Source: Kiritimatiella glycovorans (GTDB taxonomy: Bacteria; Verrucomicrobiota; Kiritimatiellia; Kiritimatiellales; Kiritimatiellaceae). From it: a DNA stretch of 32,000 nt. Position numbers and translations under genes: made by a program. The stretch spans positions 1,950,001 to 1,982,000 of the forward strand of contig NZ_CP010904.1 of assembly GCF_001017655.1 (NCBI RefSeq), read 5' to 3'. Below the pieces are notes generated by a model that saw only the letters and a program-made list of their open reading frames with translations, ran no database searches and had not been told where the DNA came from. Each line of letters starts with the position of its first letter. Positions within the stretch are counted from its first letter, which is position 1. Positions 323-22,280 of the stretch are shown here, piece by piece.

Positions 323-399
<77 letters not shown>

Positions 400-764: not shown

Positions 765-972
765 ATGGGGTGTATGGTCATTGCTTTCACAGGCTTAGAG
801 GGTTAGTGTCGATACCGAAGCGGGCGGTTTTATAATGTCAGGGGGCTGATCCTCGCGATCCGTACGACCGCGGTTCGCGTCGGGATCTGTCGGCATCGTC
901 TGCGGCTGCAAAACCGGCATGGGACATGGATCACGAAGGACCGCACAGCGACCCGAAACGGAGACGTACACG

Positions 973-7495: not shown

Positions 7496-7512
7496 AATAA
7501 AAAAGGACGCGG

Positions 7513-8997: not shown

Positions 8998-9440
8998 CCT
9001 TCCGGCAGGGCCACGTTCATCAGGCGTTCGAAGACGGCGTACAGTACAAAGGCGGCGATGAACCCGGCCGCGAGGGCCCGCACGGGGTTACGGTAACCCA
9101 GCACACGCAGCGCGGCCGCGAAGAGCAGCGCAGTCGAACTGATAAACCCCAGCCAGGGCATCAGCACCAGGTACAGCGCCGTCAGTCCGCCCAGCAGCGG
9201 GAGGCGCCGCCCGTCCCCCGCCTCCTCCGCCGCGCCGGACTCCGGCGGATTCCTCAGCGTCCCGATCAGTCCGCCCAGCGCCAGCGCCGCGAGCAGCACG
9301 CCCAGAAAGAGCGGGAAGCTGCCCGGTCCCGAATGGGCGTCCTCCGGACGCGGAAAGGTCAGCGAGAGCCCGACGGTTCCGGCCCCGATGATCAACACGA
9401 CGAGATACGCCATACGTTCAATCGTCGTTCGCCGCTTCAT
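8985..9440 (-). CDS. tctB: TTT small membrane subunit TctB
   Basis: 151-aa protein with 4 TM segments between tctC and tctA. Its start overlaps the tctC stop and its stop overlaps the tctA start, which is the canonical tctCBA arrangement. Confidence 0.8.
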   Translation of the reverse strand: MKRRTTIERMAYLVVLIIGAGTVGLSLTFPRPEDAHSGPGSFPLFLGVLLAALALGGLIGTLRNPPESGAAEEAGDGRRLPLLGGLTALYLVLMPWLGFISSTALLFAAALRVLGYRNPVRALAAGFIAAFVLYAVFERLMNVALPEGWIG

Positions 9441-10429
9441 TCCACCAGCCCCAGTTTACGCATGGTCCGGGCCACCTCTTCGGACTGGCGTTCCGCGAGG
9501 GCCCGGAAGTCCTCGTGACCCGCGACATGCAGATTCATGCCCGACTGCGCGGCGAAGGTCTCGAACGCGTCGGATTCGGCGACCGCGCGAAACGTCCCGG
9601 CGAGCACGGCGCGCCGGTCGGGCGGCACGCCCTCGGGCAGCGCCAGCCCGCGCCAGGTGCCGAACACCAGGTCGTAGCCCTGCTCGCGGCAGGTGGGCGT
9701 GTCCGGGAATCCCTCCAGCCGCCCGTCGCTCATGACCCCCAGCAGCCGGACCTGGCCGGACTCCACGTAAGTCTTCAATTCGGCGGGACTGACGGTGACC
9801 GCATCGATATGCCCGCCGATGAGTGAGGTGATGGCCTGGGAGGCACCGTTGAACGGGACGTGCACCGCCGGCATGTCCGTGCGATCGGCCAGCATCGCGG
9901 CCGCGAGGTGCCACACCGCGCCCGCCCCGGAGTTCCCGATACTCGGCGGCTCGCCCGTCTTCGCCCCGCGCACGAATTCCTCCAGCGTCTGCGCCGGATG
10001 ATCGCTGCGCACCGCCACTGCGGCGGGGTCCATGTTCAGCAGCATCAGCAGATCGAAGTCCTCATGGGTAAACGGCGCGAGCCCCTGCACCGGGAGGGAG
10101 ATCAGCTCGAACGTGGTCATCAGCACCGTGTAGCCGTCCACGGGCGCCACCCGACCGGCGGCGTGACCGATCGCCCCGCCCCCGCCGGTCAGGTTGCTCA
10201 CCAGCACCGGCACGCCGAGCCGCTTCTCCGCCTCGTGCGCCAGCTTGCGCGAGAGCAGGTCCGTGCCGCCGCCGGGCGAAAACGGACAGATCAGGGTCAC
10301 CGGCCGTTGCGGAAAGCTCCCGCCCGCCGCGCGACGCTGCCAGTTCATCCACGCCAGCGCGACGATCGCGATAACGATCACCGCCCAGGCCCACGCATTT
10401 TTGCGATCAAACATCGTTCCCGTGCTCAC
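9437..10429 (-). CDS. tctC: TTT periplasmic substrate-binding protein TctC (Bug family)
   Basis: Signal/anchor segment, then FPQRPVTLICPFSPGGGTDLLSRKLA...VSNLTGGGGAIG...DGYTVLM, the Bug/TctC signature. The start is GTG at 10429; an alternative ATG is at 10414. Confidence 0.9.
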   Translation of the reverse strand: MSTGTMFDRKNAWAWAVIVIAIVALAWMNWQRRAAGGSFPQRPVTLICPFSPGGGTDLLSRKLAHEAEKRLGVPVLVSNLTGGGGAIGHAAGRVAPVDGYTVLMTTFELISLPVQGLAPFTHEDFDLLMLLNMDPAAVAVRSDHPAQTLEEFVRGAKTGEPPSIGNSGAGAVWHLAAAMLADRTDMPAVHVPFNGASQAITSLIGGHIDAVTVSPAELKTYVESGQVRLLGVMSDGRLEGFPDTPTCREQGYDLVFGTWRGLALPEGVPPDRRAVLAGTFRAVAESDAFETFAAQSGMNLHVAGHEDFRALAERQSEEVARTMRKLGLVE

Positions 10430-10647: not shown

Positions 10648-12810
10648 TCACGGCTCCAGCGCCGCGCGGCCCACGGTGTCCGTCGCCCCGGTGTAGCCGG
10701 GGCCGCCGCCGGCGAGGTAGCCGTCGCTGCGGCCGGAACGGTCCCGGCTGACCCAGAACGCGTAGAGTGAGCCGTCGGTCAGCTCGAATTGGAAGCGGAC
10801 GGGTGTGTCGGCCAGTTCCGAGAGATCGGCGCCGCCCTTCCATCTGACCGCCGCGAGCGTGCTGTCGACGGAGAGCGGTTTGCAGTTCTCGAGGGTGAAC
10901 GGGGGGATCGGCTCGCCGTTCTCGTCGAGCACGGCGGCGCGCAGGCGACCGCCGGGCGCATCGACATTCACGAAGAGGCGTTTGCCGGAAAAGGTGACCG
11001 GGCGGGTGGTCAGTGTGCCGGGATCCGCCCCGGCGTCCATTGAGGCGAACCCGTCGCGGCGCAAAACGGCGAGACCGGTCGCGCTGTTATCGTAAGTACC
11101 CATCCTATTGCCCGGTTTTCCCCGGTAACCGGTGTAGTAGAAAAAGAGCTTGTCGCCCATGATCGTACACACATTCCCCAGCGACTGCACATACCCGCGG
11201 GCCCAGGCATCGTGGCGTTCGGCGGGGATATGGACTCGGCGGTCCGGGCGGTGGAAGTGGAAGCCGTCGCGGCTGTAGGCGAACTGCAGCTCGGTGATCT
11301 TCGGCAGGCCCGCTTTGTGGCAGATCTCGTTCGGCGGCCCCCAGTGGAGCTGGAACTGGCCGAGCATGATGCTCTCGTAGGCCACCGCGTCGAAGTTGTA
11401 GAGCTGGGCGGGACGTCCGGTGAGGTAATCCACCTTTACGCCCCGATCCTCGTCGAGCATGTCGCCGTCGTTCTCGTCGGCGGTCAACCACGGGACTTCC
11501 TCTGCGTCCGTCCGCTGTGCGCCCGCGACGAAGTCGTCGCATTCGTAGTATTTGCGTGCGCGGCCGCGTCCGGGAAATCCGGCGCGGATGCTGTAGACCC
11601 ATTTTTGGCGGAAGGGATTATAGAAGTGGGTGCTGCGATCGCCCGCCGTGCCGGATTCGGTCCGCCGGTCCCAGTGGATGCCGTCCGCCGAGGTCAGACA
11701 GAATCCGGGTTGCGGCTTGCCGGGCGGCTGGATGAAGAGCGTCCATTTCTCCGCCGGTCGCGCAGCGTCCCAGTTGCGAACCACCGTCCAGGAGTCCGGG
11801 GTAATTCCTTCGGGATGAACGAGATTACCCTGCTCGGGCCACACATCATAGTTCGGACGTTCCCAGTGAATCCCGTCGCGGCTGGTCACTAGGGCGATCG
11901 GCCCGAACCACGAGGTCTCGTACCAGAGTTTGAAGTGCCCGGCGTCCGGATCCCACCAGCACCCGCCGCTCTTCGGGACCGCCCCGGCGTTGCCGTGTCC
12001 GGACGGTTTGGAGTGCCCCTCCGGCTCGACCTCGCCCCGCTCGACCGGCGTCTCGGGCTTGAGCACCGGGTTGCCCGCGTATTTCTCGGGCCGGTGGAAG
12101 GTCCGTTCGAGCGAGGTCTCCGCGATCAGGAAGTCGTCGATAAAGAGCTGGCGGCCGACGTCGATCGGGATGACCTCCGGCGGATGGTCGAGGTACGGCA
12201 CCGGCATCGGGCTGGTGTCCGAAGGATCGATATTCCGCGGCGGCCATTCCTCGGGCAGCCGGATGCCGTTGTAGAGCCGTTCGCCGGTATTTGCGCTCCA
12301 GGGTTTCTCTTCGTATTGAATGGCCTCCCCGAGCCCCACCGCCACGACAAACTTGTTGAATACGAATCGCTCCCCCGTGCGGACCTGTTTGCGGTAGGCG
12401 GCCACCCGGTTCCACGCCTCGTCGCCGAACAACTGAAACGAGGCGGAGTCGGGCACCCGCTCGAACCCGGCCGCTTCCAGCGCCTCGGCCTGCGATCCGT
12501 ATTTGGCACCGGGCACCGGCGTCAACACCGTCAGCGACCCCGGATCCAGCACGAGCCAGTCCTCCGGCTGAGCGATGCCGTTGCGCAGGAACGGCAGGCC
12601 GTGCAGGTCCTCCGGCACCTGGTCGGTGAGCGTGTAGCCGCGGTCGGTGAAGAGTTTGACGCCCGGTTCGAAGCGGGCGACCTCGCCCTTCCCGCGGAAT
12701 TGAAGCGAAGCGCCGGAATCGGCGTATGCGGGAGAGGCAAAGATAACTGAGCCGATCAGGATCAGGCAGGCTGCGACTGGAGCTCTCTTAATTTTGGTCA
12801 TTTCTTCCAT
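10648..12810 (-). CDS. Secreted glycoside hydrolase-like protein: signal peptide, novel about 125-aa N-terminal domain, beta-propeller core (GH43/32/68-clan-like), C-terminal beta-sandwich
   Basis: Signal peptide MEEMTKIKRAPVAACLILIGSVIFASPAYA. Repeated blade motifs are SRDGIHWERP, SADGIHWDRR and SRDGFHFHRP. The C-terminal region (RRDGFASMDA...GTLTTRPVTFSGKRLFVNVDA...VLDENGEPIPPF) resembles the GH32-type C-terminal sandwich. I could not assign a family from sequence alone. Confidence 0.75.
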   Translation of the reverse strand: MEEMTKIKRAPVAACLILIGSVIFASPAYADSGASLQFRGKGEVARFEPGVKLFTDRGYTLTDQVPEDLHGLPFLRNGIAQPEDWLVLDPGSLTVLTPVPGAKYGSQAEALEAAGFERVPDSASFQLFGDEAWNRVAAYRKQVRTGERFVFNKFVVAVGLGEAIQYEEKPWSANTGERLYNGIRLPEEWPPRNIDPSDTSPMPVPYLDHPPEVIPIDVGRQLFIDDFLIAETSLERTFHRPEKYAGNPVLKPETPVERGEVEPEGHSKPSGHGNAGAVPKSGGCWWDPDAGHFKLWYETSWFGPIALVTSRDGIHWERPNYDVWPEQGNLVHPEGITPDSWTVVRNWDAARPAEKWTLFIQPPGKPQPGFCLTSADGIHWDRRTESGTAGDRSTHFYNPFRQKWVYSIRAGFPGRGRARKYYECDDFVAGAQRTDAEEVPWLTADENDGDMLDEDRGVKVDYLTGRPAQLYNFDAVAYESIMLGQFQLHWGPPNEICHKAGLPKITELQFAYSRDGFHFHRPDRRVHIPAERHDAWARGYVQSLGNVCTIMGDKLFFYYTGYRGKPGNRMGTYDNSATGLAVLRRDGFASMDAGADPGTLTTRPVTFSGKRLFVNVDAPGGRLRAAVLDENGEPIPPFTLENCKPLSVDSTLAAVRWKGGADLSELADTPVRFQFELTDGSLYAFWVSRDRSGRSDGYLAGGGPGYTGATDTVGRAALEP

Positions 12811-12813
12811 TGA

Positions 12814-13716
12814 TCAACGCGGATCGATGCATCCCGTTCCCTCGAGGTGCTTCAGACTGTGCCTCATATTTTCGACAACCTGCTCCTCCGACGCGGATCC
12901 GGAGTTGAGTTCCATGGCGGCATACACGGGTTCCGCGCGGTCGCCCAAAAGATCGGCGATTTTTTCAAACGACAGCGGATTGCCGTCGAGGACCGGCAGG
13001 GCCTCGCCGTCGCGGGCGGACTTGAGGTGCAGATACGAAATCCGGTCGGCATAGCGCCGGATGAACGCGGCGGCCTCTTCCGGCGAGGCGGGATGATCGC
13101 CGGTGAACAGGTTGCCGGTATCGAGCTGCAGTTCGACCGCGGGATCCAGTTCGTCCAGCAGCCGACGCATCCCGATGACGCCGTCCGCGCTTCCTTCGAG
13201 CACGACGTCGGCATTCTCGATCATCAGCCGGCGTCCCTTCGCCTGCGCCTTTTCCGCGGCCCAGCGCGCAGAAGCCAGCACCTGTTCAAACTCCGCCCGG
13301 CTCCAGCCGGTGTCGCCTTCCCCGAGCAGCGCCAGTACCCGCATCCGGCTGGGCCCCTCGAAGCAGGCGGCGTTGACCAGCGCCCGTTCGAACACCGGTT
13401 TGAAGTCTTCGGCCAGCAGACCGCGCTGCATGGAATACAGGACCTCCAGCCCCCGCTCGCGGGCGTCGGCGGCAATCCGTTCGCAGTCGGCCTTCGACAG
13501 CGTTGCGTCCGGGTCGCGCAACTCGATCCACGACAACTCGAGTTCGCGCGCTATATCCAGCTGCCGGCGGGCGGTCTCGACCGAAACCGACACCGTCGGG
13601 ATGAAGTTCTGGGTCGTATAGCCGATCTTCATTTCGGACTCCGTGGGTGAAAAATTCGAAACACATCCCGCGCCGAACAGGACCGCGAACGCGACGCCCG
13701 TCGCAAACATCCTCAT
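12814..13716 (-). CDS. Sugar phosphate isomerase/epimerase family protein (xylose isomerase-like TIM barrel)
   Basis: Family-like pattern is present (ELSWIELRD..., RRLMIENAD, LQLDTGNLF, ISYLHLKSA). The start is ambiguous. ATG at 13716 overlaps the kdgK stop (ATGA) and adds a signal-like segment. ATG at 13632 has a GGAG SD and gives the usual MKIGY.. N-terminus. Confidence 0.8.
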   Translation of the reverse strand: MRMFATGVAFAVLFGAGCVSNFSPTESEMKIGYTTQNFIPTVSVSVETARRQLDIARELELSWIELRDPDATLSKADCERIAADARERGLEVLYSMQRGLLAEDFKPVFERALVNAACFEGPSRMRVLALLGEGDTGWSRAEFEQVLASARWAAEKAQAKGRRLMIENADVVLEGSADGVIGMRRLLDELDPAVELQLDTGNLFTGDHPASPEEAAAFIRRYADRISYLHLKSARDGEALPVLDGNPLSFEKIADLLGDRAEPVYAAMELNSGSASEEQVVENMRHSLKHLEGTGCIDPR

Positions 13717-14804
13717 CGCACCACCCTCCCCGACCCGCTGCCGCGCATCAGCGCCTCGACCTCCGCGCGACGGCTGTGATTCCAGTCGCCCTTGATCGAG
13801 TGGGCCAGGCAGGAGGCGGCCACGGCAAAGGCGATGGCGTCGGCATGCTCAGTATATTCCCCGCTGTGGAGCGCGAAGATCAGTCCGGCCGCGAAGGAAT
13901 CGCCGCCGCCGACGCGGTCGACGATGTTGCGGATTTCATAGGGGCGGTATTCCCCGTCCCTCATCGGCGCGAACACCGCCTGTTCGCTTTCGGTGTCGTA
14001 GAGCATCGCGCCCCAGTTGTTGTGGCTGGCGGAGATGCTCTCGCGCAGGGTAATCGCGACCTTGCGCACGTTCGGGAACTGCCCGGCGATTTGACCGGCC
14101 ACCTCGGGATACTTGTCGATCGCCAGTTCCCCCGACTCGACGTCCGAGTCCCCGGCGCGAATGCCGAGCACGTCCTCGGCATCACCCTCGTTGCCGATCA
14201 CCACATCCACAAACGGAAGGATGTCGCGCATCGTCCGCCCGGCCAGCTCACGCGGCGACAGGGTTTCGTCCCATTTCCAGAGTTTTTTGCGGAAGTTGAG
14301 ATCGCACGAAACCGTCAGTCCGGCCTCCTTCGCCCCGCGCACGGCGGCGAGCGACGCCTCGGCCGCGCAGCGCGAGAGCGCCGGCGTGATGCCGGAAATG
14401 TGCAGCCAGCCGGCGTCCGCGAAAATCGCGTCCCAGTCATAGGCGTCGGCGGGGGTCCGCGACACCGCCGAGTGTTCGCGGTCGTAGATCACGTTGCTCG
14501 GCCGCTGATTGGCGCCGGTCTCGACGAAGTACAGTCCGAGACGGCCGGAGTCCGTTCGCACGATGTGCCGGGTTTCGACGTCCAGCGCCTTCAGCGAGCG
14601 GACGCAGGCGTCGGCGATCGCGTGGTCCGGCAGGGCGGTGACGTAAGCGGACGATCCGCCCAGCATGGCGATCGACGCTGCCACGTTGGCCTCCGCGCCC
14701 GCAAACGTAAGGTCCAGCCGGCCCGGGCAGCTCTGGCTGAAGCGGTAGAATCCCTCCGGGGCCAACCGCCCCATTATCTCTCCGAATCCGACAACCGGCT
14801 TCAT
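13713..14804 (-). CDS. kdgK: 2-dehydro-3-deoxygluconokinase (PfkB family)
   Basis: From the ATG at 14804 (MKPVVGFGEIMGRLAPEG...), preceded by aaaggaaag. The PfkB C-terminal motif DRVGGGDSFAAGLI is present. The longer ORF to 14948 would overlap eda and add a basic, non-homologous extension. Confidence 0.85.
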   Translation of the reverse strand: MKPVVGFGEIMGRLAPEGFYRFSQSCPGRLDLTFAGAEANVAASIAMLGGSSAYVTALPDHAIADACVRSLKALDVETRHIVRTDSGRLGLYFVETGANQRPSNVIYDREHSAVSRTPADAYDWDAIFADAGWLHISGITPALSRCAAEASLAAVRGAKEAGLTVSCDLNFRKKLWKWDETLSPRELAGRTMRDILPFVDVVIGNEGDAEDVLGIRAGDSDVESGELAIDKYPEVAGQIAGQFPNVRKVAITLRESISASHNNWGAMLYDTESEQAVFAPMRDGEYRPYEIRNIVDRVGGGDSFAAGLIFALHSGEYTEHADAIAFAVAASCLAHSIKGDWNHSRRAEVEALMRGSGSGRVVR

Positions 14805-14889
14805 GCTTCTGCTTTCCTTTCTGTTGTGCGTCATCTTTTGCATCTCCGGCAGGGCGTGTTCTCCGAATGCGGCGCCTTTCCTTTTTCGC

Positions 14890-15519
14890 TCAGGCCACGG
14901 CCGCCGCGGCGGCGGCCCGTTTCCCGATCTCCTCCCAGCGGTGTTCACGGATCAGGTCGCGCGGGGCGATCCACGATCCCCCGACCGCGCAGATCAGGGG
15001 GCTTTCCAGCCAGCCCGGCAGGTTGTCCTGGTTGAGCCCGCCCAGCGGGATGAACTGCAGGTCGAGGTGCTTGTACGGTCCGGCGGCCGATTTGAGATAC
15101 TTGAGTCCGCCGCAGGGTTCGGCCGGAAAGAACTTCAGCGTGCGGCACCCCAGCTCCACGGCCGCCTCAATCTCCGACGGGGTCATGACGCCCGGCGCGA
15201 ACGGGAGTTCCGCCGAGGCCGCTTCTTCCATGACGTCGCGGTTGAGTCCGGGAGCGACGGCAAAGGCCGCCCCCGCATCCCCGACCCGGCGCACCTGCTC
15301 CCGCGTAAGTACCGTACCCGCCCCCACCAGGATCTCAGGAACGCGTTCACGAATCACGGACATCGCCTCGAGCGCGGCCGGCGTGCGCAGCGTCAGCTCC
15401 ATCGCCCCCACCCCGCCCTCGAGCAGCGTCTCCGCCAGAGGGACCGCATCCGTCGCCTCGTCGATCACCAGCACCGCGATAATCCGCTGCCCGGCCAGCA
15501 GCTCCCTGAACCGATCCAT
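14890..15519 (-). CDS. eda: 2-dehydro-3-deoxyphosphogluconate (KDPG) aldolase
   Basis: 209 aa, MDRFRELLAGQRIIAVLVIDEATDAVPLAETLLEGGVGAMELTLRTPAALEAM... and ...TLKFFPAEPCGG..., the standard Eda pattern. SD aagggggg lies upstream. Confidence 0.9.
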   Translation of the reverse strand: MDRFRELLAGQRIIAVLVIDEATDAVPLAETLLEGGVGAMELTLRTPAALEAMSVIRERVPEILVGAGTVLTREQVRRVGDAGAAFAVAPGLNRDVMEEAASAELPFAPGVMTPSEIEAAVELGCRTLKFFPAEPCGGLKYLKSAAGPYKHLDLQFIPLGGLNQDNLPGWLESPLICAVGGSWIAPRDLIREHRWEEIGKRAAAAAAVA

Positions 15520-15595: not shown

Positions 15596-15712
15596 ACGGA
15601 TCAAGTTGAAAAGGGGCTATGGGTGGATTTTTATGGAAGGGTTCCCGGGAAGAGAATGGGATTCACCACAGCGGTCACAGAGGATGCCGGGGTCGGGATG
15701 GGAGACGACAAC

Positions 15713-15805
15713 CGTTCGTAGTAGCGCCGCAAGGCCCGGAGGGCCAAGACGCGTGAAGATAACGGCCCTTGTCCGCTGCGCGGACCTGCGGGCCTACTAC
15801 GAGCG
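15713..15805. repeat. About 93-nt REP-like hairpin unit H1
   Basis: cgttcgtagtagcgccgca...tgcgggcctactacgagcg; the terminal 12 nt are near-perfect reverse complements with an imperfect extension. Confidence 0.75.
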
Positions 15806-15812
15806 TGAAGAA

Positions 15813-15907
15813 GTTCGTAGTAGCGCCGCACGCGCCCGAAGGGCCAAGGCGCGTGAAAGATAACGGCCCTGGCCCTGCTTCGCAGGCCTGCGGGCCTACT
15901 ACGAACG
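15813..15907. repeat. About 95-nt REP-like hairpin unit H2 (tandem to H1)
   Basis: gttcgtagtagcgccgcacgcgcccgaagggccaaggcgcgtgaaagataacggccctggccctgcttcgcaggcctgcgggcctactacgaacg; nearly identical to 7133-7231. Confidence 0.75.
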
Positions 15908-16183
15908 TAAGAGAGAACGCACGATCTCTTTGCCTGTGCTCTTCTCATTCATCTTTTGGGATCGCGCCTTCGGCGCTTCGAGTACGCGTACGAGTACGAG
16001 TGCGAGTACGAATGATGTTCACCCCTTCATGCTCTTCATGTCCTTCATGGTGAATCCCATTCTCTCTCCCCCTCCGATCTACCGCATCCCACCTTTCCCG
16101 GGAACCCTTCCATAAAGACCCACGAATGACCGATTTTTTACTAGGGTTTCAGGTCTCGGCCGACCTGCCCTTCCCGGCACCGC

Positions 16184-17911
16184 TCATTCAGCCGCGAACA
16201 GCGGCACGGCCCATTTTCCGAATTCGATCACCTCTCCGGCCGCGCATGTCTTCTGGTACAGCGAGCACAGGTTGGCGGGATAGGACGTGTGCTCGAAGAG
16301 GTTGAATTCGGACAGCGCGACTTTCTCGAAGCCCTGGGCTTCGAGCTTCGCCGACTGGCTTCCGCTCGGATTGCGGTCGGGCAAAGGCGTGGCGAAATAG
16401 ACCACCCCCGCCCGGGAAACGGTCACCGATTTATCGCCGTCGATCGGCACCTGCAGGAAGCGGGCTCCCTTGAGCGCCTCGGGACATTCGGACAGCGCGT
16501 AGCCGCGGTCCGTGAAGAGCTTCGCGCCCGGATCGAACGCGAGTACCTGCACTTCGCCCGCGGCGAACGCGCCGACGGGTGAGCGGCGCAGCGCCGCTCC
16601 GTCGGCGTTGTCGCGCGGCGGGTTTTCGTCCCGCTTCCACTGCGGCGTCGCCTCCCGGGCGCCCTGATGGCGCGGGTTGCGGGCCAGCCCCTTGTCGATC
16701 ACCTGCCGGAAGAGGGCCTTTCCGGAAACCGGCTCGCCGGCCGCGACGTCCTGCTCGGTGAAGGCCGCCATCAGGATTTCTTTCGCGTGGTGGCGCTCGC
16801 GGTCGTAGATCACGTAGATCGTGCCGTCGTCGGCCTGCGTGGCGTCCGGGTAGGAAACATGGGAGCGCTCGTCGATCATCAGGCCGCCGGTCCAGCTCTC
16901 TCCGTCGTCGTCGGACAGGAAGGCCATCAGGCGCTCGCGCCGCCCGGTTTTCTCGCCGGGTTCTCCGTGCTTGACGAGCAGCAGCTTACCGGACTGCAGA
17001 CGGCCGATGTAGAAGCGGGCGACGGTGTGCTCGATGTCGGAGGGCTCCATCGGGGTCCAGGTCTTTCCCTGGTCGCGGGAAAAGCTCTCGCCGATGCCGT
17101 AGTTCATGCGGCTGAGCAGCCACAGCGAACCGTCCTCGCGCTGCACCACCTGGTTCTCGTCGCAGTTACGCCCCTCGGGCATCGGCACATGGCCGCGGAA
17201 CTCGAAGGTCCTGCCCTTGTCGGTGGAAAACAGCGGCCGGAACGGCAGCCGTCCACCGCCCTCGGCACGGGTCAGCGTACCCACCGGCCAGACCCAGGTG
17301 CCGTCGGAGAGCACGGTCGGCTTGTTCATGTGGCCGTAGTCGGTGGCGATAAGCTGCGGCGAATCCCACTCCGGCGACGGGTCGCCGGGGTTATCGGTGG
17401 TGATCGCCCACAGCTGCATGCCGCGGCACTGGTTCTCGAGCACAAAGGTCCGGTAGGAACGGATATCGTCGAAGCGCTTTTTCATATCCGCGGCGTTATC
17501 AGTCGTATAGCGGATCGGCCAGATGCTGAAGGTGAACCACATGCGGTCGTCCGGATCCATCCAGAGCCCGGCATAGGAGGCCCGGAACGGCGGATCGATG
17601 ACCATCTGCGGATCGGACCACGTGCGGCCGCCGTCGCCGCTGGTGGCCAGCATCACGATATTGCTCCAGCCCTCGCCGGTGTCGCCCGAGTCCCACGTCG
17701 CCCACAGGCGTCCGTTGGGGGCGGCGCTGATCCCGAACGAGCAGACGAACATGCGGTTTTCCGCATCGTACTCCGGACCGGGATCGGTGACGACATAGGG
17801 CATATGCGGCCAGCGCGGGGCCTGCTCCGGGTCGCTGTAGTCGGCGGCCGGCAGCGACAGTGCGGACAGCAGGACGGTCAGGGCGGTCAGTTTTTTTATC
17901 GTCTTTTTCAT
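16184..17911 (-). CDS. Secreted BNR/Asp-box (sialidase-superfamily, GH33-like) beta-propeller protein with a C-terminal about 125-aa domain shared with the GH at 10648-12810
   Basis: Start at ATG 17911 (MKKTIKKLTALTVLLSALSLPA signal peptide; SD caggaga). There are four Asp-boxes: SGDGGRTWS, STDKGRTFE, SRDQGKTWT, SDDDGESWT. I did not see a FRIP motif, so true sialidase activity is not established. Confidence 0.85.
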   Translation of the reverse strand: MKKTIKKLTALTVLLSALSLPAADYSDPEQAPRWPHMPYVVTDPGPEYDAENRMFVCSFGISAAPNGRLWATWDSGDTGEGWSNIVMLATSGDGGRTWSDPQMVIDPPFRASYAGLWMDPDDRMWFTFSIWPIRYTTDNAADMKKRFDDIRSYRTFVLENQCRGMQLWAITTDNPGDPSPEWDSPQLIATDYGHMNKPTVLSDGTWVWPVGTLTRAEGGGRLPFRPLFSTDKGRTFEFRGHVPMPEGRNCDENQVVQREDGSLWLLSRMNYGIGESFSRDQGKTWTPMEPSDIEHTVARFYIGRLQSGKLLLVKHGEPGEKTGRRERLMAFLSDDDGESWTGGLMIDERSHVSYPDATQADDGTIYVIYDRERHHAKEILMAAFTEQDVAAGEPVSGKALFRQVIDKGLARNPRHQGAREATPQWKRDENPPRDNADGAALRRSPVGAFAAGEVQVLAFDPGAKLFTDRGYALSECPEALKGARFLQVPIDGDKSVTVSRAGVVYFATPLPDRNPSGSQSAKLEAQGFEKVALSEFNLFEHTSYPANLCSLYQKTCAAGEVIEFGKWAVPLFAAE

Positions 17912-17931
17912 GGCATCTCCTGTTTGCGGGA

Positions 17932-18639
17932 TCACATGATCCCGTACGTATCGAAGGCCTCACGGGCGCCCATTCCGCCCCGGATGGCCTTCAGCACGGT
18001 CTTTTCGCCGCGGGCCTTTTCGATCGCCCGGACGAACACCTCGGTTTCGATCTCGCGGGGAACGACGCAGACACCGTCCATATCCCCGAAGACGATATCG
18101 CCGTCCGCCACGCGCACGCCCTCGATCTCCAGCGGGACGCGGAAATCGAGGACCTTGCCGCGCGGGGCCTGGTCCTGGGCGTAGCGCCCGTAGGAGAAGC
18201 AGGGGAAGTCCTGCGCCAGGATACCGCGCGTATCGCGCGAATAGCCGTTTACGACCGCGCCGGTCGCCCCGCGCTGAATCGCGCACGCGCTCATCAGCTC
18301 GCCCCACAGGGCGTACGACGGCGATGCACCGCTGCAGACATAGACCTCGTTCGGGCGCAGGTCGTCGAGCGCCTCGAGCATCAGGCCGAACGGTCGTCCG
18401 AGCAGCGGGTTGCGCTCCGCGGGTTCCGCGATCGGCGGCACATCCGCCTCCAGCACCGGCATCGCCCTCCCGACGGCCACCATATCCTTCCGCAGCGGTT
18501 TGATCCGCGGCGGCAGGAACTGGTGCAGCAGCCCCATCTTATCCATGATATCGCCTACCACGGCGGTGTACAGCTCCCCGCGCGCGAGCGCGAACAGCTC
18601 CTCGTCATCGTTCCACATCATCGAATCACCCTTCCTCAT
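17932..18639 (-). CDS. RraA family protein (class II 4-hydroxy-2-oxoacid aldolase / oxaloacetate decarboxylase-like)
   Basis: 235 aa with an RraA/HMG-aldolase-like core (..VYVCSGASPSYALWGELMSACAIQRGATGAVVNGYSRD.. and ..GDIVFGDMDGVCVVP..). The start overlaps the transporter stop (ATGA); an alternative ATG at 18621 has a ggaaggg SD. Confidence 0.8.
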   Translation of the reverse strand: MRKGDSMMWNDDEELFALARGELYTAVVGDIMDKMGLLHQFLPPRIKPLRKDMVAVGRAMPVLEADVPPIAEPAERNPLLGRPFGLMLEALDDLRPNEVYVCSGASPSYALWGELMSACAIQRGATGAVVNGYSRDTRGILAQDFPCFSYGRYAQDQAPRGKVLDFRVPLEIEGVRVADGDIVFGDMDGVCVVPREIETEVFVRAIEKARGEKTVLKAIRGGMGAREAFDTYGIM

Positions 18640-19895
18640 GACGCGATCAGTTCCATCAGCGCGACCACGGCGTTTCTCGACATGACCAGCGCGAAGATCA
18701 GGGCGGTCCCCATGCCGGCGTTCAGCCAGAACCCGGCCCTGCGCTCGCCCATGATCGACCGCTTGTTACAGAGCACGATAAAGAGCGCGACCACCAGTGG
18801 GAGGATGAACACCTGCGAGACCTGCGTGGCGATCTGGGCTGCGATCGGATTGGCGCCCAGCACCGGCACGACCAGGCCCAGCACACAGGCCACCGCGGTC
18901 AGGATGCGGAACAGCTTCGACTTGCTGTCGAACACCCCGTTGCGGTAGTCGCTGATCAGCAGCGGGGCGACCATCGCGGCCGGGAATACGGACGAGAGCC
19001 CGGCGCTGAGCGTCCCGACCAGGAACAGCGCCACGGCGTAGCGCCCCGCCACCGGTTCCAGACTCTGCACCATGTCCAGCACATGGTGGATCTCCATGCC
19101 CCGGCGGTGCAGGGCCCCGGCCGCGCAGGCCATCACCGAACCGCTGACCACGAACATCAGCGCCGCGCCGCTGAAGGCATCGATCGACTGGCGGCGGTGA
19201 TCCTCCGCCCCCCACCCCTTGGCCTTGAGCAGCAGCGGGCGGACGACGAAGGTCGGTGCCGCCATGGTCGTGCCCACAAACGCGGCGATCATCAGCGTCG
19301 CGCCGGGCACGTCCGGCACCGTCGGCACAAACCCGCGAACCACCTCGCCGGCCGGCGGGAAGACGATGAACATGGAGACGATAAAGGAGAGTCCCAGGAT
19401 GGTGACGAAGAAGATCAGCACCTTCTCGAAGAAGGAGTAGCCGCCGTGCCAGAGCAGGGCGTACATGGTCGCCATCACGACCGCCGCGATGCCCAGTACG
19501 GGCCAGTAGGCGTTTTCGGGCAGCGAAGGGATGAAGAGCCGCAACGCCTCGTAGACCGCGCTGGAGGAGAGGCCGACCAGGCCGGAGAGACAGCACCACT
19601 GGCCGACGACGACCCCGATCACCACCAGGACGGCCAGGACGTTTCCGGCCGGCATGTGCCGCCGGCAGCCGTGGACCGCCGTATCCCCCGAACACAGCGC
19701 GAAGCGCCCGGAAGCCTCGAGCAGGATCCACGAGAAGAAACAGCTGAGGGCCAGCACCCACAAAAGCTGCATGCCGAACTGACTGCCGGCCTTGCTCATC
19801 GAGGTCACGCTGCCGGTGCCGACGGTATAGCCGATGGCGAACAGCCCCGGCCCGATGCCCGCCAGTGTGCCCAGGATTTTTCGGGTAAGGTTCAT
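18636..19895 (-). CDS. NRAMP-fold (LeuT-fold) transporter lacking the canonical DPGN metal-binding motif
   Basis: 419 aa with about 11 TM segments. The N-terminus GIGPGLFAIGYTVGTGSVTSMSKAGSQFGMQLLWV aligns with the MntH segment GPG....GYIDPGN.......G..FGY.LLW, but has VGTG in place of DPGN. Both its start and its stop overlap neighbouring genes as ATGA. Confidence 0.8.
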   Translation of the reverse strand: MNLTRKILGTLAGIGPGLFAIGYTVGTGSVTSMSKAGSQFGMQLLWVLALSCFFSWILLEASGRFALCSGDTAVHGCRRHMPAGNVLAVLVVIGVVVGQWCCLSGLVGLSSSAVYEALRLFIPSLPENAYWPVLGIAAVVMATMYALLWHGGYSFFEKVLIFFVTILGLSFIVSMFIVFPPAGEVVRGFVPTVPDVPGATLMIAAFVGTTMAAPTFVVRPLLLKAKGWGAEDHRRQSIDAFSGAALMFVVSGSVMACAAGALHRRGMEIHHVLDMVQSLEPVAGRYAVALFLVGTLSAGLSSVFPAAMVAPLLISDYRNGVFDSKSKLFRILTAVACVLGLVVPVLGANPIAAQIATQVSQVFILPLVVALFIVLCNKRSIMGERRAGFWLNAGMGTALIFALVMSRNAVVALMELIAS

Positions 19896-20998
19896 GACCG
19901 GCTCCTCGTTTCAGCTTTAGCGATATCGTACCGTCGCGCTTCGTCGAGCATCACAAAATACGAGTCCGGCGGGATGTAGGCGGTGACCCAGTTTCCCGCT
20001 CCGAGAAAATAGCCGCCGCCGGGATGGCAGGCGTCGAGGACCGTCCGGGTGCGCGCGCGGATGGCCTCTTCGCTGCCGCGCGCGAGCAGATCGACATCGA
20101 TCCCGCCCAGCAGCGTCAGGCGGTCGCCGTAGCGCGCCTTCACCTGCTCCACCGGCACGATGTTGTCCTCGAACGAGTGCTTGGCGTCGATGCCCACGTC
20201 GTCGATATAATCGTCCATCAACTCGTACATGTCTCCGCACGCGTGAAGGAAGAACAGCTTCCCCTTTTCGTGTGCCAGCGCCGCCAGCCGCCGGTGCCAC
20301 GGCAGCAGGTAGCGGCGCAGCGAGCCGGGATCGATCATCAGGCCGGACTTGTACCCCATGTCGTCGGCGATGTAGAGCGCGCCGAACGAATCGAAATCGC
20401 ACAGGCAGGAGGCCACCGACACCACGAACGAACCGACCTTTTCAAACACCGCCCCGACCAGCTCCGGGTTTTCGTAGAGCGCGAAGCAGAGCGACTCGAA
20501 TCCGAACAGATCGCGGACCACCTCCCACAGGTCGAGCACGTGGAACGCGCGCATGTCGTCGGGTCTGATCCCGTCCAGCTTTTCGAGCACGGCGTAATCC
20601 GCGTCCCCCGGATCCGGCCAGGGAAACGACTCGAATTCCTCCCAGGTGGTGATCGCCCCCTTTCCCTCCTGCGACCACTCGCCCTCCAGCTTCGGGGCCG
20701 TCATGCGCGCATTTTCCGGAAAGACCCGGAACAGCTCGTGACCCAGGTGGCGATGGACCGCCAGCCTTCGCTCGAGGTCCTGATCCGGATCGTCCGGCGA
20801 CCCTCCCTCCCACAACCCCAGCCGCCCGGCGATCTCCGCCATGACATGATCGGCGATGCCGTGTTCGAAATAGTGGACGCGGTCGGGCGTACCCTCCCGT
20901 CGTACGGTCCGCATAAAACCGTCCCAGTCCGGGGTCACCGCCGGAAGGCGGACTCCCGTGTTCGCTCCTGTACCCATACTGAAAACCTGTCCCGTCAA
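19892..20998 (-). CDS. Uroporphyrinogen decarboxylase (URO-D) family protein of unknown function
   Basis: 368 aa with URO-D/MtaA-like TIM-barrel features (..YIADDMGYKSGLMI.., ..LFFLHACGDMYELMDDYIDDVGIDAKHSFED..). The start is TTG at 20998 or ATG at 20977. Confidence 0.8.
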   Translation of the reverse strand: MTGQVFSMGTGANTGVRLPAVTPDWDGFMRTVRREGTPDRVHYFEHGIADHVMAEIAGRLGLWEGGSPDDPDQDLERRLAVHRHLGHELFRVFPENARMTAPKLEGEWSQEGKGAITTWEEFESFPWPDPGDADYAVLEKLDGIRPDDMRAFHVLDLWEVVRDLFGFESLCFALYENPELVGAVFEKVGSFVVSVASCLCDFDSFGALYIADDMGYKSGLMIDPGSLRRYLLPWHRRLAALAHEKGKLFFLHACGDMYELMDDYIDDVGIDAKHSFEDNIVPVEQVKARYGDRLTLLGGIDVDLLARGSEEAIRARTRTVLDACHPGGGYFLGAGNWVTAYIPPDSYFVMLDEARRYDIAKAETRSRS

Positions 20999-21113
20999 GA
21001 ACCGCGGCGTGGCCGCATGCGTGTGCTGTGTTCCGGCCTGTATATGGGAATCGGAGCCGCGCAGGAACCTTTTTCCGTTCTCTTGAAGCAGAATGTGCTC
21101 TTCCGTATAGTCC

Positions 21114-21926
21114 GTGGTTCGTTATTGTATATATCGACCCCCGATGAACACGGAGCACTATTTTAAATCGGTCACCCGACTGCGCATCGCGCTGGAGGAG
21201 TTCGCGGCGGGCGAGATCATGCGCAGCGCGGCGTTAAAGAAGAAGGCCGCCGGGGCACTGAGCGCCCTGACGACCGATTTCAGACGCGCCCTGAAGGCGG
21301 AGGATTACGAGGCCTTCAATCGAACGGACTACCGGCTCCACCACACGCTGGTCGAACTCCCCGGCCTTCCGGTGCTGGTGGAGAACTGGGAGGCGGTATG
21401 GGAAGTCCACGCCGGGCTGCACCGCGACCGGCTCCGCGAGTACTGGCCGAATCTGCGGATCCTGGTGGAGGAGCAGGAATACCTGATCGAAGTCCTCTGC
21501 TCGTTTGATCCCGTAGCCATCCAGGACGCCATCCATAATCATCTGGAATCACTCTGGTTCCGTATTTACGAAGGCTATGCCGCTCCGCCGGCCGAACCCG
21601 AGAATCCGCTGCCGCGCGTACGGTCCTATCTCTCCTACCACCTGCACCGTCCGCTGGATCTCCGGGAGATCGCGCGCAACGTGGCCTTTACGAGCCCGGG
21701 ACACCTCTCCCGTCTGATGCGGCAGCAGTGCGGGGCGGGATTCAAGGACTACGTGCGCAATCTCCGCATGGAGAAAGGCGAGGAACTGCTGCGGCGAACC
21801 CGACTGCCCGTCAGGCAGATCGCCCGGAGGACCGGCTACCCCTCCGCCTCCCGCTTCTGCGAGTATTTCAAGCGCACGTACGGGATGACGCCGACGGCCT
21901 ACCGCAGGAAGCACCCCGACGCATGA
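21114..21926 (+). CDS. Transcriptional regulator: FCD-like (FadR C-terminal domain-like) sensor domain fused to a C-terminal AraC/XylS HTH
   Basis: The C-terminus RPLDLREIARNVAFTSPGHLSRLMRQQCGAGFKDYVRNLRMEKGEELLRRTRLPVRQIARRTGYPSASRFCEYFKRTYGMTPTAYRR is a canonical AraC double HTH. The N-terminal about 140 aa shows the FCD pattern (D..LHHTLVEL.G...L...W.....H.......EH..L...L...D...A......HL). The start is GTG at 21114 or ATG at 21144. It is divergent from the URO-D operon. Confidence 0.8.
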   Translation: MVRYCIYRPPMNTEHYFKSVTRLRIALEEFAAGEIMRSAALKKKAAGALSALTTDFRRALKAEDYEAFNRTDYRLHHTLVELPGLPVLVENWEAVWEVHAGLHRDRLREYWPNLRILVEEQEYLIEVLCSFDPVAIQDAIHNHLESLWFRIYEGYAAPPAEPENPLPRVRSYLSYHLHRPLDLREIARNVAFTSPGHLSRLMRQQCGAGFKDYVRNLRMEKGEELLRRTRLPVRQIARRTGYPSASRFCEYFKRTYGMTPTAYRRKHPDA

Positions 21927-22040: not shown

Positions 22041-22280
22041 GGCGGAAAAAAAGGGTTATTCGTGGATTTTTATGGAAGGGTTCCCGGGAAAGGTGGGATG
22101 CGGCAGATCGGAGGGGAGAGAGAACCATGAAGAACATGAAGGTTGGTTGAGGAGGGGGACATATACTCGTACTCGCACTCGTACGCGTACTCGGAGCGCC
22201 GAAGGCGCGATCCCACTCCCCCGATTCAAGGAATTCGAGTACGAGTACCGCTTCGCTGAGTACGAGTACGATATTCCCCC
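22041..22280. repeat. Truncated, inverted copy C of the mosaic repeat (terminal arm, CATGAAG module, inverted hexamer arrays around the UUCG-type hairpin)
   Basis: 22058-22125 matches the reverse complement of 16066-16131 (attcgtgg.tttatggaagggttcccgggaaaggtgggatgcgg.agatcggagg). Hexamers tactcg x5 lie at 22164-22193, hairpin gcgccgaaggcgc at 22196-22208, and the opposing array cgagtacgagtac...gagtacgagtacg at 22235-22272. The copy is flanked by the 9-bp direct repeat gggtgtccc (22032-22040 and 22281-22289). Confidence 0.7.

What the first reader, a model, noticed from the sequence alone, without database searches (positions are those of the whole stretch)
16184..20998. Translationally coupled URO-D-like / NRAMP-like / RraA-aldolase-like / BNR-sialidase-like operon: candidate undescribed glycan or sugar-acid catabolic module
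Four minus-strand genes are packed with ATGA stop/start overlaps at 19892-19895 and 18636-18639, and the RraA stop (17932) lies about 20 nt from the BNR-gene start (17911). The combination is odd. It comprises a secreted Asp-box beta-propeller (exo-glycosidase-like) with an extra putative binding domain, an RraA-family protein, an NRAMP-fold transporter without its metal site, and a URO-D-superfamily TIM barrel. RraA-family members include class II 4-hydroxy-2-oxoacid aldolases. URO-D-superfamily members include decarboxylases and corrinoid methyltransferases. A divergent dedicated regulator (21114-21926) sits upstream. One reading is release of an acidic sugar (ulosonic, nonulosonic or uronic type) outside the cell, uptake by the NRAMP-like carrier, modification by the URO-D-like enzyme, and aldol cleavage by the RraA-like enzyme. 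That would parallel the canonical kdgK/eda route encoded next door but be distinct from it. I know of no described pathway with this gene set.
Basis: inference. Interest (0 to 1): 0.7.

Follow-up and report, generated by a model that had tools for sequence, protein, structure and literature searches.

The report
Conserved sugar-acid breakdown gene module
Kiritimatiella glycovorans carries a four-gene operon that recurs in several bacterial phyla and most likely frees, imports and splits an unidentified acidic sugar, using a transporter and an enzyme from families normally linked to metal uptake and haem synthesis.

Summary
Four minus-strand genes at 16184-20977 encode a URO-D-like protein, an Nramp-like carrier, an RraA-like protein and a secreted sialidase-fold protein. 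They are tightly packed, with a divergent FCD/AraC regulator. The window is Kiritimatiella glycovorans (AKJ64919-64923). One detail needs correcting: the deposited RraA start is ATG 18621, so that junction is a 14-nt gap, not an ATGA overlap.

None of the four is a housekeeping HemE, MntH or RraA. The carrier has lost the Nramp metal ligands (D→G, N→S, M→A). The URO-D-like family keeps an invariant H-x-C…C pattern that I read as a zinc site. The RraA-like protein keeps the R-D pair of HMG/CHA aldolase.

The gene set recurs in at least four distinct other arrangements, including a Bacteroidota-type contig. In one arrangement the RraA slot holds an unrelated class II pyruvate aldolase (HpcH/HpaI). 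Across 80 genomes the carrier sits among sugar-acid catabolic and glycan-degrading genes.

Best reading: a release, import and aldol-cleavage module for an acidic sugar. The substrate and the URO-D step remain unknown. I found no description of it in the literature.

The parts
19892..20977 (-). URO-D-superfamily TIM-barrel enzyme (AKJ64922.1, 361 aa). The maximal ORF runs to TTG 20998. Its family has an invariant H-x-C...C pattern that I interpret as a zinc site.
   Evidence: Pfam URO-D 1.2e-16. NCBIfam MtaA/CmuA hits lie far below cut-off. Invariant H224, C226 and C296 in a 34-sequence alignment. Model pLDDT 85; best folds are MtaA 4ay7 and HemE at TM about 0.7 and 14-20% identity. Start.
18636..19895 (-). 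Nramp-fold carrier lacking the metal-binding residues (AKJ64921, by consecutive numbering; 419 aa). Proposed importer of the sugar acid.
   Evidence: PF01566 1.3e-60. 100% match to the K. glycovorans protein. Clade motifs GYT[IV]GTGSV and AFVGTTMA replace DPGN and MPH. It is the only transporter in the operon.
17932..18621 (-). Long-form RraA-like protein (AKJ64920.1, 229 aa). The maximal ORF runs to 18639. Proposed class II pyruvate aldolase.
   Evidence: PF03737 8.5e-32. RraA equivalog scores 36 bits against a cut-off of 136. PDB hits 5ir2, 3k4i and HMG/CHA aldolase 3noj, with the R-D pair aligned. Its slot holds HpcH/HpaI in L171.
16184..17911 (-). Secreted sialidase-fold six-bladed propeller plus a C-terminal domain of about 125 aa (L21SP4_01677, P0241, 575 aa).
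   Evidence: BNR_2 4.2e-26. Model pLDDT 90.9; top Foldseek hits are GH33 sialidases. Invariant E252, R268, R325 and Y354. A signal-peptide-like N-terminus is visible in the sequence. C-terminal domain homology.
21144..21926 (+). Divergent regulator with an FCD sensor domain fused to an AraC-type helix-turn-helix (AKJ64923.1, 260 aa).
   Evidence: FCD 1.2e-10 plus HTH_18 1e-22. Start. A promoter-like site lies at 21083-21111.
20978..21143 (.). Divergent intergenic control region between the operon and its regulator.
   Evidence: Sequence. Sigma-70-like match on the + strand at 21083-21111. No Rfam family matched.
10648..15519 (-). Associated downstream operon: eda (14890-15519), kdgK (13713 to about 14804), a xylose-isomerase-like TIM barrel (12814-13716) and an exported 720-aa propeller protein (L21SP4_01673, 10648-12810). 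Homologues of each recur beside the carrier or the URO-D-like gene elsewhere.
   Evidence: families. (recurrence). (720-aa protein: shared domain, weak GH130 profile hit, NCBI name 'glycosyl hydrolase family 32').

Best explanation
This is a conserved catabolic module for an acidic sugar released from a complex, probably sulfated and rhamnose- or fucose-containing, glycan.

The proposed sequence of steps is as follows:
1. The secreted sialidase-fold enzyme removes a terminal carboxylate-bearing sugar outside the cytoplasm. The neighbouring 720-aa propeller protein, which carries the same accessory domain, probably helps.
2. The Nramp-fold carrier has lost its metal ligands and imports that sugar acid.
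3. The URO-D-like enzyme, which I interpret as zinc-dependent, converts it into a 4-hydroxy-2-oxo acid, or removes a blocking group from it.
4. The RraA-like protein, acting as a metal-dependent class II pyruvate aldolase, splits it into pyruvate and an aldehyde.
5. The adjacent KdgK/Eda genes handle a 2-keto-3-deoxy-hexonate branch.
6. An FCD-domain regulator senses the acid.

Shown here: the gene families, the loss of the metal site, conservation of the gene set, and aldolase replacement by a non-homologous enzyme. Inferred: the class of substrate, the direction of transport, the order of steps and the chemistry of the URO-D step.
For: Conservation. URO-D-like, Nramp-like, aldolase and BNR_2 genes are adjacent in at least four distinct other arrangements (some contigs are near-duplicates):
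- L006/L170: BNR-RraA-UROD-Nramp.
- L084/L085: RraA-Nramp-UROD-Nramp, flanked by three 720-aa-type genes.
- L087/L088: Nramp-RraA-BNR-UROD on a contig with SusC/SusD genes.
- L171: UROD-BNR-Nramp-HpcH_HpaI, with a divergent AraC regulator.
- L172: UROD-Nramp only.

Aldolase slot. In L171 it holds an unrelated class II pyruvate aldolase. The R-D pair of HMG/CHA aldolase 3noj is kept.

Carrier.
- Metal ligands are replaced, and the replacement motifs are invariant across 31 sequences from several phyla.
- In 80 species-representative genomes, the genes within 7 kb include MR_MLE dehydratase (14 loci), BNR_2 (12), a C-C-cleaving enzyme (14), SDR (11), GH29 (9), sulfatase (8), HpcH (7) and KdgK (5).
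- It is the only transporter in the operon.

Acidic ligand.
- FCD sensor domains occur here and in the GntR/FCD regulators of L006 and L007.
- The sialidase Glu, Arg2, Arg3 and Tyr positions are invariant in the BNR family.
- The BNR model matches GH33 folds.

Link to the KDG route. eda/kdgK lie next to module genes in L001, L010, L031, L072 and L086.

Shared polymer. The accessory domain shared by the BNR and 720-aa proteins points to one polymer.
Against: - No substrate is identified and no experiment exists.
- The first arginine of the sialidase triad (the RIP motif) is Gly or Cys at the canonical position, and the acid/base residue is Glu rather than Asp. The enzyme may therefore not act on an ulosonic acid.
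- I could not inspect model coordinates.
- The closest long-context BNR orthologue (65% identity, L173) lies among three GH78 rhamnosidases and sulfatases, without the other module genes.
- In the genome scan only 1 of 80 carrier loci had URO-D and 3 had RraA, so the full set is a minority arrangement.
- URO-D-like homologues at 40-55% identity are mostly found in unrelated surroundings.
- An HxC...C motif with MtaA-like fold would normally imply a corrinoid partner, and none is seen nearby.
- NRMT relatives with altered sites still carry a metal (Mg2+), so a metal substrate is not formally excluded.
Confidence: 0.5

Rival explanations
1. The module handles a 6-deoxyhexose-derived or hexuronate-derived aldonic or aldaric acid (of the L-rhamnonate, L-fuconate or glucarate type) rather than a glycosidically released ulosonic acid. 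The carrier would play the part of RhmT or GudP. The URO-D-like enzyme would take the place of the MR_MLE dehydratase that makes the 2-keto-3-deoxy acid. The RraA or HpcH aldolase would play the part of RhmA or GarL. The BNR enzyme would only trim the same rhamnose- or fucose-rich sulfated glycan.
For: MR_MLE, carrier and HpcH or FAA-hydrolase or SDR arrangements in Bacteroidota loci mirror E. coli rhmRDTA and gud/gar (my own knowledge of those operons). URO-D and MR_MLE next to the carrier are mutually exclusive: 8 loci against 15, with none holding both. A PQQ-type or GSDH sugar dehydrogenase lies next to the carrier in 9 loci and in L172. The BNR orthologue in L173 sits among GH78 rhamnosidases. 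GH78 and GH106 dominate the K. glycovorans genome (PMC5148204).
Against: K. glycovorans is an obligate anaerobe (PMC5148204), and I identified no sugar dehydrogenase or lactonase among the window's annotated ORFs that could make an aldonate. No dehydratase activity is known for the URO-D fold. The tight pairing of URO-D-like and BNR_2 genes (L087, L089, L091, L171) is not explained.
Confidence: 0.25
2. The URO-D-like protein is a zinc-dependent methyl- or alkyl-transferase of the MtaA type that removes an O-methyl or similar group from the imported sugar under anoxic conditions, before aldol cleavage.
For: The best NCBIfam and fold matches include MtaA/CmuA methyltransferases. H-x-C...C is invariant, with 70-residue spacing; that this matches the MtaA zinc ligands rests on my own knowledge. 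UniProt names the protein 'putative methyltransferase'. The host is an obligate anaerobe (PMC5148204), so an oxygen-dependent demethylase would not serve it (inference).
Against: Scores are far below the family cut-offs (48 bits against 235). A profile of the family finds no solved structure by sequence. No corrinoid-binding protein or activase is seen in the gene tables of the loci that carry the module. Corrinoid-dependent cleavage of aliphatic methyl ethers is not established.
Confidence: 0.15
3. The genes are neighbours without a common pathway. The Nramp-like protein supplies a divalent metal, RraA regulates RNase E, URO-D makes haem, and the BNR protein is a mucin-type neuraminidase, as the genome paper suggested.
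For: NCBI's Nramp_1 model is passed (82 bits against a cut-off of 50). The genome paper lists L21SP4_01677 as a neuraminidase.
Against: The metal ligands are lost. The MntH, RraA and CHA-aldolase equivalogs are far below cut-off, and no HemE model is hit. The gene set is conserved across phyla in changing order. The genes are translationally coupled.
Confidence: 0.05

Closest known systems
Sialic-acid (nan) utilisation clusters: NanH sialidase, NanT/SiaT-type transporter, NanA lyase, NanR (an FCD regulator). This includes the 2,7-anhydro-Neu5Ac variant with a GFO-family oxidoreductase. (Own knowledge.)
   Same: The logic is the same: an exported sialidase-fold exo-enzyme, one dedicated importer, a pyruvate-releasing aldolase, an extra conversion enzyme before cleavage, and an FCD-type sensor.
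   Different: The aldolase is class II (RraA-like or HpcH-like), not the class I NanA. The carrier is Nramp-fold rather than MFS, SSS, TRAP or ABC. The conversion enzyme has a URO-D fold. No NanK or NanE is present. The first arginine of the sialidase triad is not at its canonical place.
E. coli rhmRDTA (L-rhamnonate) and gud/gar (glucarate/galactarate) operons. (Own knowledge.)
   Same: They combine a sugar-acid importer, an enzyme that makes a 2-keto-3-deoxy acid, and a class II HpcH-family aldolase. The carrier clade is found with MR_MLE and HpcH genes in many Bacteroidota loci.
   Different: The window has no MR_MLE dehydratase, and a URO-D-like gene stands in its place. The transporter family is different. 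A secreted glycosidase is part of the operon.
HMG/CHA aldolase (PDB 3noj), the enzymatically characterised RraA-like class II pyruvate aldolase of protocatechuate 4,5-cleavage.
   Same: Long-form RraA fold. The R-D pair and flanking G-[DE]-L and G-D...D-x-D-G stretches are aligned.
   Different: It scores only 62 bits against the 179-bit cut-off for the equivalog. The setting is glycan catabolism, not aromatic catabolism. The best PDB relative is 5ir2, deposited as 'Cellulase'.
NRMT / 'Nramp outgroup' (EleNRMT 7qia; NrmT, PMC4072509).
   Same: It is the closest solved relative (E 2.6e-16), with an Nramp fold and an altered metal site.
   Different: NRMT still carries a metal (Mg2+). This clade has different, invariant replacement motifs and sits in carbohydrate-catabolic loci rather than magnesium-riboswitch or MgtE settings.
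MtaA/CmuA methylcobamide methyltransferases and HemE (URO-D superfamily).
   Same: Same TIM-barrel fold (TM about 0.7). The H-x-C...C pattern resembles the MtaA zinc ligands.
   Different: Identity is 14-20% and scores are far below cut-offs. No corrinoid partner and no haem-pathway setting are present.

Membership tests
HemE (uroporphyrinogen decarboxylase) | Full-length match to a curated HemE model. | tested here: not met
   Pfam URO-D matches only residues 166-357. No HemE NCBIfam model is hit. The best PDB HemE hit is 1e-5 over 150 residues.
HemE (uroporphyrinogen decarboxylase) | Haem-biosynthesis gene neighbourhood. | tested here: not met
   No haem-biosynthesis genes were seen next to it in the window or in the related loci.
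MtaA/CmuA zinc methyltransferases | Score above the family cut-off. | tested here: not met
   TIGR01463 scores 48.7 bits against a cut-off of 235.4.
MtaA/CmuA zinc methyltransferases | His-x-Cys...Cys zinc ligands. | tested here: met
   H224, C226 and C296 are invariant in 34 sequences. Equivalence to the MtaA ligands rests on my own knowledge and was not shown by a residue-level alignment (one search gave no hit).
MtaA/CmuA zinc methyltransferases | Corrinoid protein partner encoded nearby. | tested here: not met
   No B12-binding domain appears in the gene tables of L084, L087, L170 and L171 or in the window genes that were scanned.
MntH / Nramp divalent-metal transporter | DPGN (TM1) and A-x-x-M-P-H (TM6) metal-binding motifs. 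| tested here: not met
   They are replaced by G-T-G-S and T-T-M-A-A-P, which are invariant in the clade.
MntH / Nramp divalent-metal transporter | Curated model cut-off. | tested here: inconclusive
   MntH NF001923 scores 90.6 bits against 430 (fails). The generic Nramp_1 model NF037982 scores 82.3 against 50 (passes).
RraA (RNase E regulator) | Short protein of about 160 aa that matches the RraA equivalog. | tested here: not met
   The protein is 229 aa. NF006875 scores 36.3 bits against a cut-off of 136.
HMG/CHA-type class II pyruvate aldolase | Catalytic Arg-Asp pair and long-form fold. | tested here: met
   GYSRDTRG aligns with VRDTQT of 3noj. The equivalog cut-off is not reached (61.7 bits against 179), so it is not the same enzyme.
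HMG/CHA-type class II pyruvate aldolase | Pyruvate-forming aldol cleavage activity. | not testable with these tools
   Supported only by the HpcH/HpaI replacement in L171.
GH33 exo-sialidase | Six-bladed propeller fold with Asp-boxes. | tested here: met
   The top 50 Foldseek hits are almost all GH33 sialidases, with E down to 1.4e-14. BNR and BNR_2 are hit in Pfam.
GH33 exo-sialidase | Arg triad, Tyr/Glu nucleophile pair and Asp acid/base. | tested here: inconclusive
   By motif alignment to 7lbu and 6mnj, E252, R268, R325 and Y354 are conserved. The RIP arginine is C57 here (Gly in the family consensus), and the acid/base residue is E80.
Canonical nan cluster | NanA class I lyase, NanK and NanE. 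| tested here: not met
   No DHDPS-family, ROK or NanE domain was found among the cluster genes.

The most novel reading that the evidence does not exclude
A whole clade of the Nramp family has been converted from metal transport to the import of a sugar acid. It works with a zinc-type URO-D-fold enzyme that carries out a so far unknown step, such as hydration, ring opening, demethylation or dehydration. That step prepares an algal or cyanobacterial ulosonic-type sugar for cleavage by RraA-like or HpcH-like aldolases. Together these would define a new, phylum-spanning route of anaerobic glycan catabolism.
Probability: 0.35. Interest if true: 0.75.

Novelty: new variant of a known kind. Interest (0 to 1): 0.62.

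Why it matters
Three large families would be given wrong or empty names in thousands of genomes of marine and sediment glycan degraders: 'Nramp family divalent metal transporter', 'uroporphyrinogen decarboxylase family protein' and 'RraA family protein'.

If the carrier moves a sugar acid, it is the first organic-substrate member of the Nramp family and a natural example of how a metal site is rebuilt. The URO-D-like enzyme would add a new reaction type to carbohydrate catabolism. The module would also point to a still unidentified acidic sugar in sulfated microbial-mat or algal polymers that anaerobic Kiritimatiellota, Planctomycetota and Bacteroidota harvest.

Tried and rejected
- **Literature:** nine searches found no description of this gene set. 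The only relevant hits were the genome paper, which calls L21SP4_01677 a neuraminidase, and the NrmT paper.
- **URO-D-anchored metagenome scan:** it returned mostly homologues at 40-55% identity with varied neighbours. It did not measure how strongly the close orthologues are linked to the module.
- **URO-D profile against PDB sequences:** nothing found.
- **720-aa protein and TIM-barrel protein against PDB sequences:** nothing found. A 10-sequence profile of the 720-aa family gave only weak GH130 hits at E 0.002.
- **My own greedy ORF caller:** it picked wrong-strand ORFs in high-GC loci (L006, L007 and the window). I relied on tblastn and on the called genes from the look-up of encoding contigs instead.
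- **AFDB fold library:** unavailable.
- **Rfam:** no regulatory RNA in the cluster.
- **Terminator and promoter scans:** not above the shuffled background.
- **Rejected reading:** true HemE, MntH or RraA housekeeping roles.

Full report
**Source and anatomy**

The window comes from Kiritimatiella glycovorans L21-Fru-AB. The Nramp-like and BNR proteins match its proteins at 100% on a 2.95-Mb contig. Exact look-up gives AKJ64915-64923 for the cluster.

The following genes lie on the minus strand:
- A URO-D-like gene at 19892-20977. Its start is ATG 20977 according to AKJ64922.1; the maximal ORF begins at TTG 20998.
- An Nramp-like gene at 18636-19895.
- An RraA-like gene at 17932-18621, by the deposited start.
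- A BNR/sialidase-like gene at 16184-17911.

The junctions are as follows:
- URO-D and Nramp overlap as ATGA.
- RraA and BNR are separated by 20 nt containing AGGAG.
- At the Nramp/RraA junction an ATGA exists. The deposited start 18 nt downstream has the better Shine-Dalgarno-like sequence and fits the 227-230-aa homologues. Either way the genes are tightly coupled.

A regulator that fuses an FCD sensor domain to an AraC helix-turn-helix is transcribed divergently from 21144.

Downstream on the same strand, after a 660-nt repeat-rich spacer, lie four more genes:
- eda.
- kdgK.
- A xylose-isomerase-like TIM barrel.
- An exported 720-aa protein. ORF coordinates show a 4-nt overlap between kdgK and the TIM-barrel gene, and a 3-nt gap between that gene and the 720-aa gene.

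A tctCBA carboxylate transporter follows.

**What the four proteins are not**

- *URO-D-like protein.* It matches Pfam URO-D only over its C-terminal half. It hits MtaA/CmuA models at 48 bits against cut-offs of 235 or more, and no HemE model.
- *Carrier.* It fails the MntH model (91 bits against 430), although it passes NCBI's generic Nramp_1 model.
- *RraA-like protein.* It scores 36 bits against 136 for RraA and 62 against 179 for CHA aldolase.

**The carrier**

Alignment with solved Nramps shows that the metal ligands are replaced. Asp and Asn of DPGN become Gly26 and Ser29, and Met of the TM6 motif becomes Ala212. The replacement motifs GYT[IV]GTGSV and AFVGTTMA are invariant in 31 relatives that share 59-78% identity. 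These relatives come from Kiritimatiellales, Verrucomicrobiota, Planctomycetota, Latescibacterota and Bacteroidota. The closest solved structure is the Mg2+ transporter EleNRMT, at only E 2.6e-16.

A pattern scan of species-representative genomes found at least 570 relatives, and I analysed 80 loci. Within 7 kb of the carrier gene the counts were as follows:

| Neighbour | Loci (of 80) |
|---|---|
| MR_MLE sugar-acid dehydratase | 14 |
| RraA, HpcH/HpaI, Eda or FAA hydrolase | 14 |
| BNR_2 protein | 12 |
| SDR | 11 |
| GH29 fucosidase | 9 |
| PQQ-type sugar dehydrogenase with a cytochrome c domain | 9 |
| Sulfatase | 8 |
| GFO-family oxidoreductase | 7 |
| Zn-ADH oxidoreductase | 7 |
| TIM-barrel gene also present in the window | 6 |
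| KdgK | 5 |

This is the setting of a substrate importer in sugar-acid catabolism, not of metal homeostasis. The literature knows an 'Nramp outgroup' and the NrmT magnesium transporters, but assigns no organic substrate (PMC4072509).

**Conservation of the gene set**

The module recurs with changing gene order:
- L006 and L170 (Kiritimatiellales-type MAGs): GntR/FCD regulator, double BNR_2, RraA, URO-D, Nramp.
- L084/L085: two 720-aa-type genes, RraA, Nramp, URO-D, Nramp, another 720-aa-type gene, a beta-helix protein, BNR_2.
- L087/L088, on a contig with SusC/SusD genes and hence Bacteroidota-type: Nramp, RraA, BNR_2, URO-D.
- L171, a contig seen in at least 20 samples: a divergent AraC regulator, then URO-D, BNR_2, Nramp, HpcH_HpaI.
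- L172: URO-D, Nramp.

Partial sets link the module to the KDG route:
- Ruficoccus has eda, kdgK, BNR and Nramp.
- A TARA contig has eda, kdgK and URO-D.
- L089 has BNR, Zn-ADH, the TIM barrel and URO-D.

This suggests further shared contigs. For 8568, 7099, 9595 and 54877 the look-ups confirmed it.

The full four-gene set is nevertheless a minority arrangement. In the genome scan only 1 of 80 carrier loci had URO-D, and 3 had RraA.

**The aldolase**

The RraA-like protein is of the long form. Its best PDB relatives are 5ir2 (deposited as 'Cellulase'), 3k4i and HMG/CHA aldolase 3noj. The Arg-Asp pair and neighbouring motifs are aligned.

The strongest functional clue is L171. There the same slot is filled by an HpcH/HpaI protein, an unrelated class II, metal-dependent pyruvate aldolase. 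HpcH genes also lie beside the carrier in 7 genome loci.

**The glycosidase**

The AlphaFold model (pLDDT 90.9) matches GH33 sialidases almost exclusively, at 12-21% identity.

I aligned motifs to 7lbu and 6mnj and used my own knowledge of the Micromonospora sialidase residues (R68, D92, E260, R276, R342, Y370). On that basis the family-invariant residues E252, R268, R325 and Y354 correspond to the Glu, the second and third arginines, and the nucleophilic Tyr. The acid/base position holds Glu80. The RIP arginine is Cys57 here and Gly in the family consensus, with an invariant Arg53 four residues upstream. I could not inspect coordinates to see whether Arg53 substitutes.

The protein has a signal-peptide-like N-terminus, by inspection of the sequence.

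Residues 452-575 form a separate domain that is 39% identical (E 4e-16) to residues 40-162 of the 720-aa protein. The rest of that protein has propeller-like SxDGxxW repeats (by inspection of the sequence). NCBI names it GH32 family, and it gives weak GH130 profile hits. Two exported enzymes sharing one accessory domain suggests they act on one polymer.

The closest BNR orthologue with long context (65% identity, L173) lies among three GH78 rhamnosidases and four sulfatases. GH78 and GH106 dominate the K. glycovorans genome (PMC5148204). The polymer is therefore probably sulfated and rich in rhamnose or fucose.

**The URO-D-like enzyme**

The model (pLDDT 85) matches MtaA (4ay7) and HemE structures at TM about 0.7. 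In 34 homologues, His224-x-Cys226 and Cys296 are invariant, counting from the ATG at 20914 that begins alignment A2 (add 21 for AKJ64922.1). Many Arg, Asp and His residues are also invariant. The pattern resembles the zinc ligands of MtaA (my own knowledge). No corrinoid protein is encoded nearby.

Close orthologues (55% identity or above) travel with the module. More distant ones (40-55%) have varied neighbours, among which sulfatase, GFO and BNR_2 genes recur.

Next to the carrier, URO-D and MR_MLE are mutually exclusive: 8 loci against 15, with none holding both. This suggests either equivalent roles in making the aldolase substrate or two substrate-specific versions of the module.

**Interpretation**

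The best-supported model is a release, import, conversion and aldol-cleavage route for an acidic sugar, with an FCD-type acid sensor and a link to KdgK/Eda. It works like a nan cluster, or like the rhm and gar sugar-acid operons, but it is built from different protein families.

The substrate is not identified. Two readings remain open:
- An ulosonic acid released by the sialidase-fold enzyme.
- An aldonic or aldaric acid derived from 6-deoxyhexoses or uronates.

The URO-D step is the main unknown.

**Verdict**

The module is conserved across phyla and I found no description of it. I rate it a new variant of a known kind of system (a sugar-acid utilisation locus), with interest of about 0.6.

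Noticed in passing
window 15957-16139 and 22046-22215 (also 15609-15651; weaker at 7457-7476): Inverted copies of a repeat element of about 180 nt bracket the four-gene operon plus its regulator (71 nt at 92% and 52 nt at 94% complementarity). The element contains a GTACGA/GTACGC hexamer run and the core TATGGAAGGGTTCCCGGGAA. The core occurs four times in the window (three exact copies and one with two mismatches) against 0 expected. It looks like a REP- or MITE-like element.
   Followed up: partly
window 15700-15910: A tandem duplication of about 100 nt with internal hairpins lies in the spacer between the BNR gene and eda (repeat families D6-D8 and inverted pairs I5, I6, I9).
   Followed up: no
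window 21144-21926: The regulator joins an N-terminal FCD sensor domain to a C-terminal AraC helix-turn-helix. FCD normally follows a GntR helix-turn-helix, as it does in the L006 and L007 regulators of the same module.
   Followed up: partly
window 10648-12810 (L21SP4_01673): An exported 720-aa protein with no Pfam domain, named GH32 family by NCBI, gives weak GH130 profile hits. Its N-terminal domain matches the C-terminus of the BNR protein. Its homologues flank the carrier in L060, L064, L076 and L084 (three copies in L084).
   Followed up: partly
window 7513-10429: A tctC and tctA (with a probable tctB) tripartite tricarboxylate transporter lies just downstream of the cluster on the same strand. 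The longest ORF at 7307-8935 is the wrong frame; TctA is 7513-8997.
   Followed up: partly
loci L019-L021, L025, L044, L050, L052, L062, L063 (Cyclobacteriaceae): A PQQ-type glucose/sorbosone dehydrogenase fused to a cytochrome c domain lies directly next to the carrier gene, on the opposite strand in most of these loci. This hints at periplasmic sugar oxidation feeding the carrier.
   Followed up: no
all loci that hold the carrier: URO-D-like and MR_MLE genes within 7 kb of the carrier are mutually exclusive (8 loci against 15, none with both).
   Followed up: partly
PDB 5ir2: The best solved relative of the RraA-like protein (E 2e-26) is deposited as 'Cellulase'. That name looks inconsistent with an RraA-like fold.
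   Followed up: no
L006 1356-4067: A single 903-aa protein fuses a GH29 alpha-L-fucosidase to a BNR_2 propeller, just upstream of the module in a Kiritimatiellales-type MAG.
   Followed up: no
window 326-399 and 919-4134: A tRNA gene lies on the minus strand, and a 1071-aa multi-PAS hybrid histidine kinase follows. A PAS histidine kinase also lies next to the carrier in Ruficoccus (L001).
   Followed up: no
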